The notes under the pieces: generated by a model
What the model was told of the DNA's origin: nothing
The model's input: the letters and a program-made list of their open reading frames with translations, nothing else
The model's database searches: none
Shown here: piece by piece, positions 18,280-42,031 of the stretch
Layout of the letters: every line of letters starts with the position of its first letter
How positions within the stretch are numbered: the first letter of the stretch is position 1
NCBI RefSeq assembly: GCF_009914755.1
Contig: NC_060927.1
Strand: one strand, 5' to 3'
Source of the DNA: the human T2T-CHM13v2.0 reference genome, Homo sapiens
DNA length: 64,000 bases
Translations under genes and position numbers: made by a program

Positions 18280-19310
18280 TAGACTGTAACTTACATATTT
18301 CTAATATGATACAGAGAGGACAGTAACCACTAACAAATCTAAACAAAGAGAAATCCTCAAAAACGCTACAGACAAATAAAAATGAAATTCTAAAAAACGT
18401 TCATGTAATCTAAAGGAAAACAGGAAACAAAATGCAAAAGAGAAAAACAAAATAAAATAAAATGGCAGGCTTAATATGTAAAACATTAAAAATCAGATTA
18501 AATATAAAAGGTCTAAATATACACTGAAAAGACAGGTTTGTGGAATAGATTAAGAAAATAAATGACCCAACTACATGTTGTATACAAGAAACTCACTTAA
18601 AATATAATAAAGGTAGAGTGAACATGCAACAGGAGATACCATGCAAACATTAATTAAAAGAAAGCAGGTCTGGCTATACTGATATCAGAAAAAATAAACT
18701 TCAGAGGGAGGAAATTAACAGGAACATAAAGAAACACTACATAATGATAAAATAATAAAATTATCATTTTGATTCCATTCACCAAGAAGACATAACAATT
18801 CTAAATATGTATGAAACAAGCAACAAAGGTGTAAAACACTGAAGTACAAACTGGGAGAGAGACAAGACAGGAGAAACAAATAACTCCACAATTATAGTTG
18901 AAGACTCCAACACTCCTCTCTCCTCAGTTGACAGGATAACCTGAAAGAAAATCGGCAAAGATACAGAAGAACTCAACAGCATCATCAAGCAACAGGATCT
19001 AACCAACTTTTATACTATACCCCAATGAATAATAGAATACACATTTTTTTTCAGGCATCCATAAACATAGATGCCTGAAATAGAATACACTTTTTTTTTC
19101 AGGCATCCATAGAACATAAAGATAAAACAAATCATACAAATTGAGATATGCATACACATTGTACCAGTGCAGATTTTCTGGTATAGATATTGTACTATAG
19201 TTTATAAAATATAACCACTGGAAGAGGCTGGGTGAAGTACAGGGGACTTCTCTGTCCTATCTCTGCAACTTCTTGTGAAAGTATAAGTATTTCAAAATAA
19301 AAAATTTAAG
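18280..19310 (+). mobile_element. Old L1M fragments (ORF2 endonuclease region and an L1MC/MD-like 3' end)
   Basis: gacccaactacatgttgtatacaagaaactcac, caagaagacataacaattctaaatatgtatg. Confidence 0.7.
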
Positions 19311-30411: not shown

Positions 30412-33153
30412 CTGTTGTGCCTTGTGCTGTTACTGAGCTAGGGAGGTAAAGTACTTAGGAAAAGAGAATAACATACCCAGGCACAAGAGAACCTTTCTTT
30501 GGCAATGGGCACTTGCTTGCAAGCACCAACTCAATTTTCAGCCTAATTCATAGATCTGTATTTGGTATAATTAGGGATTTATCAGAGACAAAGAAAGTTG
30601 ACCCCGCATCCCATTTTATTCTCTACACACAGGAAACACAGAGGAAAGATTTTCTTTAACAGATGGTTTTAAATTAAATTGTATTCTGTGAACAGAAAAA
30701 TGGTGTATGGAAGCTAAGCTATTCTAGGTTCTGAAGAAGACAACTTTCTGACCACAGGCATAAAACTGCTGATCTGGTACCCAGTAACTGCAAAGTCAGA
30801 GGGCTTCATACTGAGCACCAGAAAATTCATACTGAAGTGTAGCAATAATCATTCTTCCCTCTCTATACAAACCAACCTCAGATAAAGTAATCTATGTTAG
30901 AAAATATATATTGTGTAATACAACAGAGCTAAAATTTAAAAGATTTGTGGAAAGAAGGCAGTCATTAGCCAGTAGCCCTACATTAATTTCAGAGCTTGAC
31001 ATTCCTTTACAGATAAGAAAGCTGAAGTCCAAGGAGGTTAAGTGTGATGATGATGGACGTACAATCCTTCAGGGCAGAGGCAGGGTTAGCAACACAGTCC
31101 TACAACATGGTTAAAATCTTTACAATTTCAAAATTTCATTTGAATTTCAAATGCACATTTCCGTTCTTACCAGAGTTACTTCAAAAATGAGTGGGATCAG
31201 TTTGCTTTCTTCCACAAGTCTGTTAAAAACAAGAAAAAAAGATAAGTGCACATTAGACAATTCATATTTGCACTGATGGCCTGATATAAAGCACCTCAGC
31301 CCCCATGTTTTATTGCTAAAATTCCATGATAAGAAATAGTATGATTAAACATTCTTTTTAAGACACTGAACTATAGCTATTAAACAAGAAATATGAGGCT
31401 TTTTTGCAAGTGACTACTAGCTTAGCCTTATTGATGTGTAGCAAGTGAAATCTCAAATAGATTGGTATTTTTAATGCAGGGATTAAAATTCACAATTATT
31501 ATAAAGACTATCAAAATAGGTAATATCAGCTGAAATAATGTAACCAACCCTCTCTGCACTGTTAAATCATAAAATGACACACTGTAATTTTTTATATATG
31601 CCTCATTAGCTGTATTCTCAGCATTAAGAAATTAATGTATGACGAATTTTAATGATCTTTAATTTTTAAAAAATTAGACACCAGTCACCTGGTAGACACT
31701 AGGCACTTTCCCTCATCAAATCTAGTTATCAATTGTCATCAATTGTAATAGAAGAATTTTTTCATAAAAGAGAAAACAGCCTTGGTAAAACCTAAATCAT
31801 TCAAAAGTCACAGTTTTGATTAAGAACAATATTTGTGACATCCAGGGAGGAGCCAAGATGGCCGAATAGAAACAGCTCTGGTCTGCAGCTCCCAGCAAGA
31901 CCAACACAGAAGGCAGGTATTTCTGCATTTCCAACTGAGGTACCCAGTTCATCTCACTGGGACTGATTAGGCATTGGGTCCAACCCACAGAGGGATAGCA
32001 GAAGCAGGGTGGGGCGTCGTCTCACCAGGGAAGTGCAAGGGGCTGGGGACCTCCCTCCCCCAAGCCAAGGAAAGCTGTGAGGAACTGTGCTACCCGGCCT
32101 GGTTACTACGCTTTTCCCACGGTTTTTTCAATCTGCAGATCAGGAGATTCCCTCGTGTGCCTATGCCACCAAGGTCCTGGGTTTCAAGCACAAAACTGGG
32201 AGGCTGTTTGGGCATTCACCAAGCTAGCAGTAGCGGCAGGAGTGTTTTTTCATACCCGGCAGCACCTGGAACCCCATCTAGACAGAACCGTTCACTCCCC
32301 AGGGAAGGGGGCTGAAGCCAGGGAGTCAAGTGGTCTTGCTCCATGGGTCCCACTCCCACGGAGCCCAGCAAGCTAAGAACCATTGGCTTGAAATTCTCAC
32401 TGCCAGCACAGCAGTCTGAAATTGACCTGGGATGATCTAGCATGGTAGCGGAGGGGAATCTGCCATTACTGAGACTTTAGTAGGTGGTTTTTCCCTGACA
32501 GTGCTAAGAAGCCTGGGCAGGGCAAAGCAGCTGTGGCCAGACTGCTTCTCTAGATTCCTCCTCACTGGGCAGGGCATCTCTGAGGAAAGGTAGCAGCCCA
32601 AGTCAGGGGCTTACAGACAAAACCCCAATCTCCCTGGGACAGACCACCTGGGGGAAGGGGCAGCTGTGGGTACAGATTCAGCAGATTTCATTGTTCCTGC
32701 CTGCCAGCTCTGAAGAGAACAGCTGATGCTCTTGACAAGACGGATTCTCCCAGCACAGAGCACCAGCTCTGCTAAGGGACAGGCTGCCTCCTCAAGTGGG
32801 TCCCTGACCCCAAGCCTCCTGACTGGGAGAAACCTCCCAACAGGGGTCGACAGACACCTCATACAGGAGAGCTCTGGCTGGCATCAGGCCGGTGCCCCTC
32901 TGGGACAAAGCTTCCTGAGGAATAAGCAGGCAGCAATCTTTGCTGTTCTGCAGCCTCCACTGGTGATACTCAGGCAAACAGGGTCTGGAATGGACCTCCA
33001 GCAAACTGCAGTAGACCTGCAGAAGAGGGGCCTGACTGTTTGAAGAAAAACTAACAAACAGAAAACAACAACATCAACATCAACATAAAAAACCCCCACA
33101 CAAAAACCCCATCCAAAGGTCATCAGCCTCAAAGATCAAAGGCAGATAAATCC

Positions 33154-38306: not shown

Positions 38307-38535
38307 CAGGGTTCAGAAAAGATTTTTTCCGTAACAGTCCAAATAGCTAATAGCCCAAATATTTCAGGCTTTGCAGGCCACATTGTCTCTATAGCAACTA
38401 CTCAACTCTGTCATCATAAAGTAAAAGCAGCCATAAAGAATATAGAAAGAAATAAACATGGGTGTGTTCCAATAAAACTTTATTTATAAACAACAGGCAG
38501 TGGGCCATGTTTAGGGGAAAGCTACAGTTTGCAGG
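38307..38535 (+). mobile_element. MER58A (hAT-Charlie)
   Basis: aggctttgcaggcca...gcaactactcaactctg...gtgttccaataaaactttattta. Confidence 0.85.
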
Positions 38536-38848
38536 TTACCGCTTCAGTCCAAAAAATAAAATAAAATCATATTCCTTTCTACTATTTTATTAGAATTTTG
38601 TATGATAAATTACAGAGCTTAAGACAAACATGTTACATATGTTGTAGGTATGTGTAGTTTGTCTATTTCACAGAAAACACCAGATATTTAATAGTATGAT
38701 TAAATGCTCACGGATAGAAAGGGAATTTTAACATCTGGCCTCCCAGGAGCTTATTTGTCTATGATAACACACTGATAAAAGAAAAGCCTATGAGACTAAC
38801 CAAAAAAGATCACAGTGTTTACATACACTTGTGAAGGGAAAATGAGAT

Positions 38849-39083
38849 ACAGAGATTTACCAAAGACTGAAGCACTTAGAAAGTCCACCTTGATGTCTAG
38901 CAAAAAAAAATGTGATTACTATTCATTGCAGCATTATCCATAATAGACAAGATACGGAAACAACCTAAATGACCATCACTGGGTGAATGAATAGAAAAAA
39001 ATGCAGCATATGTACACAATGGAATACTCATCAGCCTTAAAGAAACAAGAAACTCTCATTTGTGACGATAAGGATGAATTATC
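38849..39083 (+). repeat. Inverted repeat, left arm (donor), 235 bp
   Basis: Reverse complement of 40234-40468 with 2 mismatches. Confidence 0.97.
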
Positions 39084-39480
39084 CTAAGTGAAATAAGTCA
39101 AGCACAGAAAAACAAATACTACATGATTTCACTTATATGTAGACTCTAAAAAAGTCAAACTCAAGAGAAGTAGAGGGTAGAATGGTGGTTACCAGAGTGG
39201 GAAGGTGTGGACAAGAAAAGGAAAGATATAAATCAAAGGGTATAAAGTTAAGTTAGACAGGAGAAATAAGTTAGTTAATAATAATGTAGTATGTATTTCA
39301 AAATTATTACAAGAGTAGATTTTAAGTGTTCCCACCACAAAGAAATGATAGCACGTGAAGTGATGGACATGTTAATTAGTCTGATTTACTCACTCCACAA
39401 AGTATACACATATCATAACATTACACTCTATGCCACAAATACACAATTATAATTGTCAGTTAAAAATAATTTTAAATAAA
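38920..39480 (+). mobile_element. L1MA-like 3' end
   Basis: ttcattgcagcattat, ctaagtgaaataagtca, agagtagattttaagtgttcccaccacaa. Confidence 0.85.
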
Positions 39481-39801
39481 TAATGTTGATAAAGTTTAAA
39501 AATAAATAGATGTGATCACTTCTGTAGTTTCAATGAAAACAGTTTTGGTGACAAATGTTAAGTTCATTTATATTTTCTCTCTTTCCTGGGCAATTGAATG
39601 AAGGCTCAGACGTGAGGCTGAGGCTCCTTACATCATGCCTAGGTAGGACAGGAAACACGCAGACTCAAAACCACGAACAACTTCAGGTCCAGCACATTCA
39701 CAGTCTTCTTCCTCAGTTTCCTTAAATTTGTCTTCTTAAGTTTTTATGATTTATACTATTATTAGGCCTGGGCTAAAATAACCAAGCACATACATCTCAG
39801 A

Positions 39802-39825
39802 GTTGCCCTGGCAACCGAGGCCAAT
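39802..39825. promoter_or_regulatory. RFX X-box palindrome with adjacent CCAAT
   Basis: GTTGCCCTGGCAAC (39802-39815) fits GTNRCC-N-RGYAAC; CCAAT at 39821-39825; motif evidence only. Confidence 0.6.
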
Positions 39826-40233
39826 GAAGTCAGAAGAACATAAATGCCACGACTTCTCCAATGGTACCTGGACGATCCAGAGCATCACTCACAACACCGG
39901 CCCTTTAACGGTAGTATTTTAAACTATATTCTACTAAGGCATAACCACACAAAACTATCTTAATTCCTTCTTAAGAACTGCAGCTAGTTCTTCTCCAGGT
40001 CTCTGCATGATGCGCACGCTGGCCTGGATTACCTCTTAAGTCTCTTTGACTATAAATGCTAACATTCCATTCTCACATTCTTCTGAATACAATATACCAT
40101 AACAATTTTTGTTCTTTGATTTGACTAATTATGTAGCTCTAAACATAATTTAGAGCTACATAAATTATTCCTGGGTAAATAAAAAGAGAATTCAAGCTAA
40201 GTAATTTTTTTTAGTGGTAAGCCTAATAAGGAC

Positions 40234-40468
40234 GATAATTCATCCTTATCGTCACAAATGAGAGTTTCTTGTTTCTTTAAGGCTGATGAGTATTCCATTG
40301 TGTACATATGCTGCGTTTTTTTCTATTCATTCATCCAGTGATGGTCATTTAGGTTGTTTCCGTATCTTGTCTATTATGGATAATGCTGCAATGAATAGTA
40401 ATCACATTTTTTTTTGCTAGACATCAAGGTGGACTTTCTAAGTGCTTCAGTCTTTGGTAAATCTCTGT
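40234..40468 (-). repeat. Inverted repeat, right arm (inserted copy), 235 bp
   Basis: 233/235 identity to the reverse complement of 38849-39083. Confidence 0.97.
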
Positions 40469-40969
40469 TAAAAAAAATTTCTGTATTGTTTTCTATGACT
40501 TATGAACTCACCTCAAATGTAATTTCAACTGACGGATGTTAAAGCAAGTAAGGAAGAAGGGTGGCTGCAAACATTTACAATTCTCTAAGGCAGAATTTTT
40601 CTAAATTGTGAGAGGTGATCAATAAGTGGACAATGAGATTAGTTTACTGGGTATTGACTAGCATGTTTTTAATTAAAAGAATAAAACAGAATATCCAAGG
40701 GTATCGCACATAGTATTGTTCTGTAATGTACTGAGTGGTAGCATAAAATGCTTTTCTTTTTTTAAACCATGAATTGAATAACTTTTGATAAAATATCTGA
40801 TATCCACGGATTTAAGGAGATTGCTTTAGAGACAATATTCATTTGTTTTTCAGTAATTTCTTAAAATGTGGTTTTAAAAAATCGGTCTCCTTACTTTAAG
40901 CATCTCCTCTCACACAAGCATAGGTCCAATTGGTGGAGACAGTGATCAAACCCCAACGCACTCTGAATT

Positions 40970-40988
40970 GTGGCGCCATCTACTCAGC
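40970..40988 (-). promoter_or_regulatory. Possible CTCF-like motif
   Basis: Minus strand gctgAGTAGATGGCGCcac; core matches but the conserved upstream CC reads TG. Confidence 0.3.
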
Positions 40989-42031
40989 GCACCCTTCATT
41001 TGATGCAGTACTTTGGAGAGCAGCTCCGGTGCTCAGGCCTCGCAGAGGCCAAGGAGGATGAGGCTTACCACTAAAAAAAAGTTGATGTTGCTGATTTCTA
41101 GAGAATTATCAGACAACAAGTATTCAATAATCATAGCAGATCTTACAAAATAATGACGCAAAAGACTCTTTCACTATCGGGCTCTGTTGTGGTTGGCCAC
41201 CATGACTTAAATCATCTGTCATTTTACTACATGGGCTTGTTATATCCTAAATCCGAAAAGAATGAAATGTCTATAATTTACAGACAGCCTGAAGGACAAG
41301 AAGTGAAGAGATTTACCTAAATTTTTTTAAACCAAAACCAAACAAAATGAAGACCTTTTTGAAATTATCCCTGATCTTCAAAGGATTCTCAACATATTAA
41401 CTATGTTACAGTATACTTTTCTTCCTTTATTTTAGCCAGCTAAGCACACTGTGTTTAAGTAACTCCAGATGGGTAAACTAAAATATACTGCACTTCCCAA
41501 ATGCAGTTTCCAGGACCACTTTACCCTGGGGTTGGTTGGTTTGTTTCCCCTTTAAGGGTGCCATTTAATGACAGATTTCATGTGGTTAAAGAGTCTCCCT
41601 TACAAAGTTTGGGTTCAGAAACCATTTTGTATATCTGTGGTTTATATTATTAACAAAGGAGGTAGTGTTTCAATTACCAAGTTTGGAATAAACTTATAAA
41701 ACCTTTAAGAATACATTATTTCACACTCTAACTCCCTCCTGTGCCTAAATGTTACCCTTAATGTTGGAAAAAAATTTTTTAATTTATTTATTAATGTTTG
41801 ATAGTCCAAGTGTCAATACACAATATTTTAAATGTCATGTATTTAAGTACTATTTAAATAAACTATGTATTTAAATTAGGATAATTATTTAGTTGAGATT
41901 CATCTATGGAAGCTACAAGCACAAATTGATCTTAAGATGATTTTGTCACGAAATGTGCTGTGATTATTAAATAATTAAAATGCAAATTTTAAAGAATGAG
42001 TCAATACTTTTCATGTAAGAAAGTACATTGC

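What the first reader, a model, noticed from the sequence alone, without database searches (positions are those of the whole stretch)
40205..40468. Young composite templated insertion built from two nearby loci, both inverted
Seen: 40205-40224 (ttttttttagtggtaagcct) is the exact reverse complement of 41061-41080, about 0.85 kb downstream. 40234-40468 is the reverse complement of 38849-39083 (233/235), about 1.2 kb upstream. The 9-nt linker and its edges reuse short words from the upstream donor end in direct orientation (ataagga = 39068-39074, gacgataa = 39064-39071). The 235-bp piece crosses a unique-DNA/L1MA boundary and has no poly-A tail or TSD, so it is not a retrotransposition. Inference: serial template switching (MMBIR/FoSTeS or Pol theta-mediated end joining). 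Removing the insert would leave roughly aa-T8/9-A8-tt, a palindrome that may have been the break site. Only two mismatches suggest a recent, possibly lineage-specific or polymorphic event.
Basis: partly seen in the sequence, partly recalled or inferred. Interest (0 to 1): 0.8.

Follow-up and report, generated by a model that had tools for sequence, protein, structure and literature searches.

The report
Small inverted templated insertion, ULK4 intron
A 264-base patch in an intron of the human ULK4 gene was stitched together from backward copies of two nearby stretches of DNA, an ordinary and probably harmless scar of error-prone DNA copying or repair.

Summary
40234-40468 is the reverse complement of 38849-39083 (233 of 235). 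40205-40224 is the exact reverse complement of 41061-41080. That 20-mer occurs nowhere else in the 3.1-Gb genome, and no other copy of the 235-bp piece is closer than 82%. The left copy is the donor, because a LINE-1-like fragment runs unbroken across its right end.

Eight of the nine linker bases are what the newly made strand would add by folding back on its own end. The empty site would have been a T8-T-A8 palindrome, and a strong 15-bp-stem hairpin lies 42 bp away.

The best reading is one event of serial DNA template switching, either at a stalled replication fork or in synthesis-dependent end joining. It belongs to a catalogued class: inverted duplications with a median length of 284 bp are the commonest non-mobile-element inversion-type variant in 1,019 long-read human genomes.

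"Young or polymorphic" is not shown. Each copy carries one derived substitution, which fits about 0.5-31 Myr and most likely several Myr. No primate or other human haplotype could be examined.

One by-product is a predicted 233/235-bp RNA duplex in the ULK4 pre-mRNA. Interest is low.

The parts
38849..39083 (+). Donor 1: the 235-bp template. About 71 bp of single-copy DNA (38849-38919) plus the first ~164 bp of a 5'-truncated LINE-1-like fragment.
   Evidence: 233/235 to the insert. (left part is single copy apart from the insert). (repeat homology starts at 38920-38922 in 8 of 10 alignments).
38920..39471 (+). LINE-1-like 3' fragment that runs unbroken across 39083/39084. This shows that the left copy is the original.
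   Evidence: related copies align continuously, for example 38922-39471 and 38922-39422. The family name is from my recall and the subfamily was not tested.
39067..39083 (+). Short inverted repeat at the donor's copied end (5-nt arms 39067-39071 and 39079-39083 around a 7-nt loop). It is the proposed fold-back primer at the point where copying stopped.
   Evidence: the DNA hairpin is -0.7 kcal/mol for the bare end, -5.8 after the first 3 linker bases and -6.5 with the whole linker.
40129..40163 (.). Perfect 15-bp-stem palindrome with a 5-nt loop, 42 bp from the insertion site. Candidate replication block, or a further template-switch product.
   Evidence: pair I11, 100%. (-13.8 kcal/mol, z -7.84, 0 of 200 shuffles as stable). 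(single copy).
40205..40212 (+). T8. Either resident target sequence used as 8-nt microhomology, or the copied complement of the A8 at 41073-41080. The two cannot be told apart here.
   Evidence: if T8 is kept, the empty site is a perfect 10+1+10 palindrome.
40213..40224 (+). Piece 1: 12 unambiguous bases copied, inverted, from 41061-41072.
40225..40233 (+). 9-nt linker. On the bottom strand, bases 1-8 form a 10-bp hairpin with the nascent strand's own end (one G-T wobble). The pattern is consistent with fold-back synthesis.
   Evidence: 7-nt word; 344/20000 and 300/20000 controls; the first 3 bases equal the predicted fold-back extension.
40234..40468 (-). Piece 2: the 235-bp inverted copy of donor 1.
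40469..40482 (+). Right flank (T, A8, then TTTCT). It mirrors the left flank 40200-40213 at 13 of 14 positions.
   Evidence: (pair I18).
41061..41080 (+). Donor 2: the 20-nt template ending in a genomic A8, inside single-copy DNA.

Best explanation
This is a single complex mutational event in the germline of a human ancestor. A free DNA 3' end at a T8-T-A8 palindrome in a ULK4 intron switched templates several times before rejoining, leaving a 264-bp insertion.

The most economical path has the bottom strand as the growing strand (inferred):
1. The 3' end just right of the site primed with about 1 nt of microhomology on the bottom strand at 38849 and copied 235 nt up to 39083.
2. It came off at a small inverted repeat, folded back on itself and added about 8 nt. 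This is the linker.
3. It primed again with 2 of 3 matching bases at 41061 and copied 20 nt, ending in A8.
4. That A8 annealed to the resident T8 at 40205-40212, and normal synthesis or ligation resumed.

I favour a stalled, uncoupled replication fork (FoSTeS/MMBIR type), because both templates are the same parental strand on either side of the site. Synthesis-dependent microhomology-mediated end joining after a break gives the same product.

The insertion has no evident function. Its by-products are a 235-bp inverted repeat with a 1150-bp spacer and a near-perfect intronic RNA duplex.
For: Shown:
- Both pieces are inverted copies of unique local sequence, and the donors are 0.6-1.6 kb from the site.
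- The 20-mer is found only at these 2 places in 3.1 Gb.
- The left copy is original, because the repeat is continuous across 39083/39084.
- The first 3 linker bases are exactly what extension of the 5-bp terminal hairpin would add, and a 7-nt linker word is the reverse complement of the nascent end (344/20000 and 300/20000 controls reach it).
- The flanks form a perfect 10+1+10 palindrome if T8 is resident.
- A hairpin of -13.8 kcal/mol (z -7.84) lies 42 bp away.

From papers:
- T8 is the most enriched motif at the first switch point of great-ape template switches, and hairpins are noted there (PMC7954356, section 11 and passages).
- Germline templated insertions with up to five templates and junction microhomology are described (PMC8421209, passages).
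- 277 inverted duplications with a median of 284 bp, mostly with 1-15 bp microhomology, are attributed to a replicative origin (PMC12350158, passages).
- Fold-back ('snap-back') priming in end joining is described (PMC5728401, passages; PMC4912351, abstract in the listing only).
Against: - No empty allele was seen, so the target sequence, any deletion at the site and the claim of a single event are all inferred.
- Microhomology is minimal at two of the four junctions (1 nt, and 2 of 3).
- 235 nt is far longer than the ~5-34 bp fold-back insertions reported at yeast breaks (PMC11724301, abstract in the listing only).
- The templates lie beyond the 100-bp search radius used to define MMB-TIs.
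- The direction of synthesis rests mainly on the linker, whose significance is modest (about 1.5-1.7%).
- The fork and break versions cannot be separated from sequence alone.
Confidence: 0.8

Rival explanations
1. RNA-mediated patch. LINE-1 ORF2 protein nicked the T8/A8 site, the T8 primed on an A-run in a plus-strand transcript of this same region, and the reverse transcriptase jumped within or between RNAs (a class 1 or class 2 templated sequence insertion).
For: The presumed site matches the TTTT/A nicking preference named in PMC5110952 (passages). On the bottom strand the insert ends in A8. Both donors are in the same sense, and in the order a single plus-strand RNA would carry them.
Against: There is no flanking direct repeat of 5 bp or more. 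All 8 A's are templated by the genome, and there is no AATAAA or ATTAAA in the 40 nt before the A-run. The donors lie within 1.6 kb of the target on both sides, which is very unlikely for an RNA that can insert anywhere in 3.1 Gb. ULK4 is transcribed from the other strand, so a plus-strand transcript is hypothetical. The linker is explained by fold-back on DNA.
Confidence: 0.04
2. Two separate events: a 235-bp inverted duplication and, at another time, a small templated insertion of 12-20 nt beside it.
For: Each piece alone is a known kind of event. Nothing in one genome proves that they arose together.
Against: The pieces are 9 nt apart, and the 9 nt between them is itself templated from the end of the large piece. 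Two independent rare events at one T/A site are less parsimonious than one multi-switch event, which is documented in the literature.
Confidence: 0.07
3. An old inverted duplication (tens of Myr) kept 99% alike by gene conversion between the arms, rather than a duplication a few Myr old.
For: Close inverted repeats can undergo conversion (general knowledge). The repeat fragment inside the arms is old: it is 65-76% identical to its relatives over the longer alignments, and the best short hit is 82%.
Against: The arms are only 235 bp and identity ends sharply at both ends. Each arm keeps a private derived base, so no recent conversion covered those sites. The junction features (linker hairpin, exact 20-mer) are intact, although the 29 nt outside the arms has no partner to be converted against and would have decayed over tens of Myr.
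Confidence: 0.06
4. Assembly artefact in T2T-CHM13 (a chimeric or fold-back read).
For: None was found. It could not be tested here because no reads were available.
Against: The arms differ at 2 sites and are separated by 1150 bp of unique DNA. The insert is composite with a structured linker. A fold-back read artefact would be an immediate, identical palindrome.
Confidence: 0.02

Closest known systems
Small inverted duplications catalogued as insertions in long-read human population data (SVAN class; PMC12350158)
   Same: An inserted sequence that realigns in inverted orientation within 2 kb of the breakpoint. The size (264 bp in total, 235-bp piece) is close to the reported median of 284 bp. 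Junction microhomology is little or short, and a replicative origin is proposed (passages).
   Different: This insert is composite: a second 12-20-nt template from the other side plus a fold-back linker. Whether it is polymorphic is unknown. The supplementary tables that could be read do not list it, but they hold no full call set.
MMBIR-linked templated insertions (MMB-TI; PMC8421209) and FoSTeS/MMBIR template switching
   Same: Inverted copies of nearby templates, several templates in one event, microhomology or one-mismatch 'microhomeology' at junctions, and germline persistence of harmless events.
   Different: The templates are 0.6-1.6 kb away rather than within 100 bp, and one piece is 235 nt. 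Two junctions have only 1-2 nt of homology.
Short-range template switches in great-ape genomes (four-point model; PMC7954356)
   Same: Reverse-complement copying creates an inverted repeat. There is a T8 tract and hairpin-prone DNA at the initial switch point.
   Different: That model describes one excursion over tens to hundreds of nucleotides. Here there are two excursions plus a fold-back, over up to 1.6 kb.
Synthesis-dependent MMEJ / polymerase theta end joining with snap-back synthesis (PMC5728401; PMC4912351)
   Same: Fold-back priming on a short inverted repeat at the 3' end, short templated additions, and a final join through newly made microhomology, here A8 on T8 (abstract).
   Different: A 235-nt copy from 1.4-1.6 kb away is long for this pathway. 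No enzyme can be assigned from sequence.
Templated sequence insertion polymorphisms, classes 1 and 2 (PMC5110952)
   Same: An insertion of templated genomic sequence. The presumed site fits TTTT/A.
   Different: Those patches come from distant, usually transcribed loci. Class 1 has a target-site duplication of 5 bp or more and an untemplated poly-A of 10-40 nt. None of this holds here.

Membership tests
Local inverted duplication / templated insertion by DNA template switching (MMB-TI, FoSTeS/MMBIR type) | The inserted sequence is the reverse complement of a nearby template on the same chromosome. | tested here: met
   233/235 and 20/20, with donors 1150 bp and 836 bp from the insert edges. 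Both are unique in the genome.
Local inverted duplication / templated insertion by DNA template switching (MMB-TI, FoSTeS/MMBIR type) | Microhomology (or one-mismatch microhomeology) at the switch junctions. | tested here: inconclusive
   1 nt at 38849/40468, and 2 of 3 nt before 41061. There are up to 8 nt (T8/A8) only if T8 was resident. Without the empty allele the flank junctions cannot be fixed.
Local inverted duplication / templated insertion by DNA template switching (MMB-TI, FoSTeS/MMBIR type) | Template within 100 bp (the operational MMBSearch criterion). | tested here: not met
   The donors are 0.6-1.6 kb from the site. They are within the 2-kb window that SVAN uses for inverted duplications.
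Local inverted duplication / templated insertion by DNA template switching (MMB-TI, FoSTeS/MMBIR type) | An empty ancestral allele exists, so that this is an insertion and not an ancestral arrangement. | not testable with these tools
   No primate or second human genome is held. The flanks are single copy, so no paralogue serves as a proxy. Scans of two other collections found nothing.
Polymerase theta / SD-MMEJ repair scar | Short templated additions copied from sequence next to the 3' end (snap-back or in trans). | tested here: met
   8 of the 9 linker bases pair with the nascent end in a 10-bp hairpin. The 7-nt word is reached by 344/20000 and 300/20000 controls.
Polymerase theta / SD-MMEJ repair scar | Dependence on POLQ, and short synthesis tracts. 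| not testable with these tools
   Enzyme dependence cannot be read from sequence. The 235-nt tract is longer than the ~5-34 bp reported for fold-back insertions in yeast (abstract only).
LINE-1 ORF2p-mediated insertion (class 1 TSIP / retrocopy) | Target-site duplication of at least 5 bp abutting the insert. | tested here: not met
   at most 3 nt are shared between the sequences abutting the two ends.
LINE-1 ORF2p-mediated insertion (class 1 TSIP / retrocopy) | Untemplated poly-A of 10-40 nt downstream of a polyadenylation signal. | tested here: not met
   There is an A8 only. All of it is present in the genomic donor at 41073-41080, and no AATAAA or ATTAAA lies in 41020-41072.
LINE-1 ORF2p-mediated insertion (class 1 TSIP / retrocopy) | Insertion at a TTTT/A site. 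| tested here: met
   T8 followed by T and A8 at the presumed site. This motif is also the one enriched at template-switch sites.
Inversion with staggered breaks (inverted duplications flanking an inverted segment) | The duplicated copy next to the inverted segment is joined to it by a novel junction, while the other copy is contiguous with it. | tested here: not met
   The repeat fragment runs uninterrupted from the left arm into the spacer. The right arm is joined to the spacer through a foreign 20-mer and linker. The spacer is therefore in its original orientation and the right arm is the addition.
Foldback or terminal-inverted-repeat transposon | Multiple genomic copies with the same terminal inverted repeats. 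| tested here: not met
   The arms' single-copy part and the spacer flanks occur once in the genome.

The most novel reading that the evidence does not exclude
The insertion may be specific to the human lineage or still segregating. The 235-bp near-perfect inverted repeat it created would then matter in cis.

- In the ULK4 pre-mRNA it is predicted to form a 233/235-bp duplex with two A-C mismatches. That would be a strong substrate for ADAR hyper-editing and could alter intron processing or back-splicing.
- At the DNA level, the arms could mediate inversion of the 1150-bp spacer, or stall replication.
Probability: 0.07. Interest if true: 0.45.

Novelty: new member of a known kind. Interest (0 to 1): 0.2.

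Why it matters
It is a clean, fully resolved example of a multi-step template-switch insertion. Every junction can be read: an inverted 235-nt copy, a fold-back linker, an inverted 20-nt copy, and a return through an A8/T8 match at a palindromic poly(dA:dT) site next to a strong hairpin. It could illustrate the mechanism or serve as a test case for tools that call complex insertions.

It does not open a new question. Inverted duplications of this size are already the commonest non-mobile-element inversion-type variant in long-read population data. It lies about 7.6 kb from the nearest exon (31171-31219), inside a very large intron. Any effect through the intronic RNA duplex is speculative.

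Tried and rejected
- Proxy for the empty site from paralogous or repeat copies spanning the insertion point: the flanks 39480-40204 and 40469-40900 are single copy, so none exists.
- Stray copies of the flanks in the prokaryote-genome and viral-contig collections, which might have given a second haplotype: 0 matches each.
- Polymorphism look-up in the supplementary tables of PMC12350158: no 'ULK4', no 'inverted duplication' label and no position beginning 416420-416425 in file 2. This is uninformative. The readable tables hold only differentiated variants and mobile-element hallmarks, the file is cut, and file 1 could not be read.
- Paper search for ULK4 + inverted + insertion + structural variant: 8 papers hold all four terms and 7 were listed. 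Judged by title and abstract start only, none concerns this locus.
- ULK4 + A-to-I + intron: 4 papers. The one I opened concerns mouse Ulk4 circular RNAs, not this repeat.
- Rfam on 38500-41500: 0 matches at an E-value of 1 or less, so donor 2 is not a recognisable small-RNA pseudogene.
- Pfam on short open frames of the repeat fragment and of a better-preserved relative: 0 families, so the LINE-1 label has no family-level confirmation here.
- Rejected readings: transposon with terminal inverted repeats, staggered-break inversion, and retrotransposition. See the membership tests.

Full report
**What is there.**
- 40234-40468 is the reverse complement of 38849-39083, with 233 of 235 matches. 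The mismatches are at donor 38983/insert 40334 and at donor 39002/insert 40315.
- 40205-40224 is the exact reverse complement of 41061-41080.
- Nine bases (40225-40233) lie between the two pieces.

In dinucleotide-preserving shuffles of the window, neither the 12-mer without the T-run nor the 20-mer ever reached two matches (0 of 100 each). A self-comparison of the whole 64-kb window at 95% identity or more lists only two pairs: this one and an unrelated 40-nt direct repeat.

**Genome-wide uniqueness.** The window's genome (3.1 Gb) could be searched.
- The 20-mer, with up to one mismatch, occurs at exactly two places, 856 bp apart. The reversed control pattern has 3+1 places. A chance match so close to the insert is therefore very unlikely.
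- The 264-bp insert gave 40 scored matches out of 1388 first-look candidates. Two are at 99% or more (itself and the donor). The other 38 are 75-82% identical and confined to insert bases 31-215.
- The donor's left part (query 38760-38921) is single copy apart from the insert, where bases 90-162 of the query match at 100%.
- The region around donor 2 is single copy.

So the 235-bp piece does span a boundary between single-copy DNA and an interspersed repeat at about 38920. It cannot be a second, independent copy of that repeat. I recognise the repeat as the 3' part of a LINE-1. The subfamily was not tested, and Pfam gave nothing for the short frames.

**Which copy is the original.** Related repeat copies align continuously from about 38920 to 39422-39471, straight across 39083/39084. 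The left copy is therefore in its ancestral context. The right copy stops inside the repeat and abuts a linker and a foreign 20-mer. This also rules out a staggered-break inversion of the spacer.

**Junction anatomy.** On the bottom strand, which is the donor's orientation, the insert reads: right flank ending in T8-A; the 235-nt copy; the 9-nt linker; the 20-nt copy ending in A8; the left flank.
- The copied end of donor 1 carries a 5-nt inverted repeat with a 7-nt loop.
- The first three linker bases are exactly what extension of that fold-back would add. The hairpin goes from -0.7 to -5.8 kcal/mol.
- With the whole linker, a 10-bp hairpin with one G-T wobble forms (-6.5 kcal/mol). A 7-nt linker word is the reverse complement of donor 39068-39074.
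- That word length is reached by 344 of 20000 random 9-mers of local composition and by 300 of 20000 real 9-mers of the window. The support is real but modest.
- Before 41061, two of the three preceding bases match the nascent end.
- The last step can use A8 against T8.

**The presumed target.** If T8 is resident, the empty site is a perfect 10+1+10 palindrome made only of A and T, with 12 of 13 positions pairing outward.

Forty-two bases to the left lies a single-copy perfect palindrome with a 15-bp stem and a 5-nt loop, at 40129-40163. It folds at -13.8 kcal/mol with z = -7.84, and 0 of 200 shuffles are as stable. This could have blocked a polymerase, or it could be another product of the same process.

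**Mechanism.** The path is inferred.
1. A 3' end at the palindrome copied 235 nt of the same parental strand 1.4-1.6 kb to the left.
2. It folded back on itself and added about 8 nt.
3. It copied 20 nt 0.6 kb to the right.
4. It returned through the A8/T8 match.

Both templates are the same strand, and they lie ahead of and behind the site. That fits a leading strand switching to the lagging-strand template at an uncoupled fork. A break repaired by synthesis-dependent end joining gives the same product, and I cannot separate the two.

The literature fits this reading:
- T8 is the most enriched motif at the first switch point of great-ape template switches, and poly(dA:dT) tracts are cited there as fork-stalling sites (PMC7954356, section 11 read in full, plus passages).
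- Germline templated insertions with up to five templates, with microhomology or one-mismatch microhomeology, are reported (PMC8421209, passages).
- Snap-back priming is an established part of SD-MMEJ (PMC5728401, passages).

**Rivals.**
- An RNA or LINE-1-mediated patch fails two of the three class 1 criteria quoted in PMC5110952. There is no target-site duplication of 5 bp or more, and no untemplated poly-A or polyadenylation signal. It would also require an RNA to insert within 1.6 kb of its own source.
- Two separate events are less parsimonious, because the 9 nt between the pieces is templated from the end of the large piece.
- An old duplication homogenised by gene conversion is unlikely for 235-bp arms with sharp ends and an intact 29-nt junction region. 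It is not excluded.
- Misassembly is unlikely given two mismatches and a 1150-bp unique spacer. It was not tested.

**Age.** I read the two mismatch columns in 9 alignments of related repeat copies. These came from 6 of the 38 non-self hits (the only ones made into loci) plus 3 copies elsewhere in the window. A tenth alignment did not cover the columns.
- Column 38983 is A in 7 of 9 (T once, gap once).
- Column 39002 is T in 9 of 9.

So the donor's G and the insert's C are each derived: one substitution per copy since copying. With 0.5-1.0e-9 substitutions per site per year, which are my assumed rates, the results are as follows:
- The point estimate is 4.3-8.5 Myr.
- The 95% Poisson range is about 0.5-31 Myr.
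- The probability of two or more differences is 0.6-2.4% at 0.5 Myr.

Error-prone synthesis could account for the insert's change but not for the donor's. A segregating SNP in the donor could shorten the estimate. 'Young' in the sense of a few Myr is plausible. 'Polymorphic or human-specific' is neither supported nor refuted. No outgroup or second haplotype was available, and the look-ups I tried found nothing.

**Comparison with what is known.** In 1,019 long-read human genomes, inverted duplications were the most common class among 733 non-mobile-element inversions: 277 events with a median length of 284 bp. Most had 1-15 bp of microhomology, and the authors suggest a replicative origin. Templates were sought within 2 kb of the breakpoint (PMC12350158, passages).

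The present insert fits that class in size, distance and orientation. What it adds is a second short template and a readable fold-back linker. It lies outside the operational 100-bp radius of MMB-TI calling. It is larger than the short-range four-point events.

**Consequence.** ULK4 is transcribed from the minus strand. In a fold of the 1721-nt pre-mRNA segment, 233 of 235 arm positions pair with their mirror partner, and the two exceptions are A-C mismatches. The duplex energy of the arms alone is -410.7 kcal/mol.

A preprint that predicted 5,134,754 human dsRNAs found 31,017 that were more than 96% paired, and 2,018 that were also longer than 300 bp (PMC11838218, section 10). This duplex would be among the highly paired ones but below 300 bp, and it is intronic. 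Editing or any effect on ULK4 is untested speculation.

**Verdict.** The claim of recency is untested, and the data lean towards an age of several Myr. This is an ordinary, neutral-looking member of a known class of structural mutation. Interest is low.

Noticed in passing
window 40129-40163: Single-copy perfect palindrome with a 15-bp stem and a 5-nt loop, 42 bp left of the insertion site. DNA hairpin of -13.8 kcal/mol, z -7.84. It may be a replication block, or itself a product of a short template switch.
   Followed up: partly
window 38849-40468, minus strand (ULK4 pre-mRNA): The two arms are predicted to form a 233/235-bp RNA duplex with a 1150-nt loop and two A-C mismatches. It is a likely ADAR substrate if it forms in vivo.
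   Followed up: partly
window 40900-41080: A locally G+C-richer, single-copy stretch that ends in the A8 used as donor 2. It looks like the tail of an old retroposed sequence, but it has no other genomic copy and no Rfam match.
   Followed up: partly
window 19031-19118: A 40-nt direct repeat at 95% identity with copies about 48 bp apart. It is probably a short tandem duplication.
   Followed up: no
window 40200-40213 and 40469-40482: The sequences directly flanking the insert mirror each other at 13 of 14 positions (pair I18). Part of this symmetry remains even if the T8 is counted as copied sequence.
   Followed up: yes
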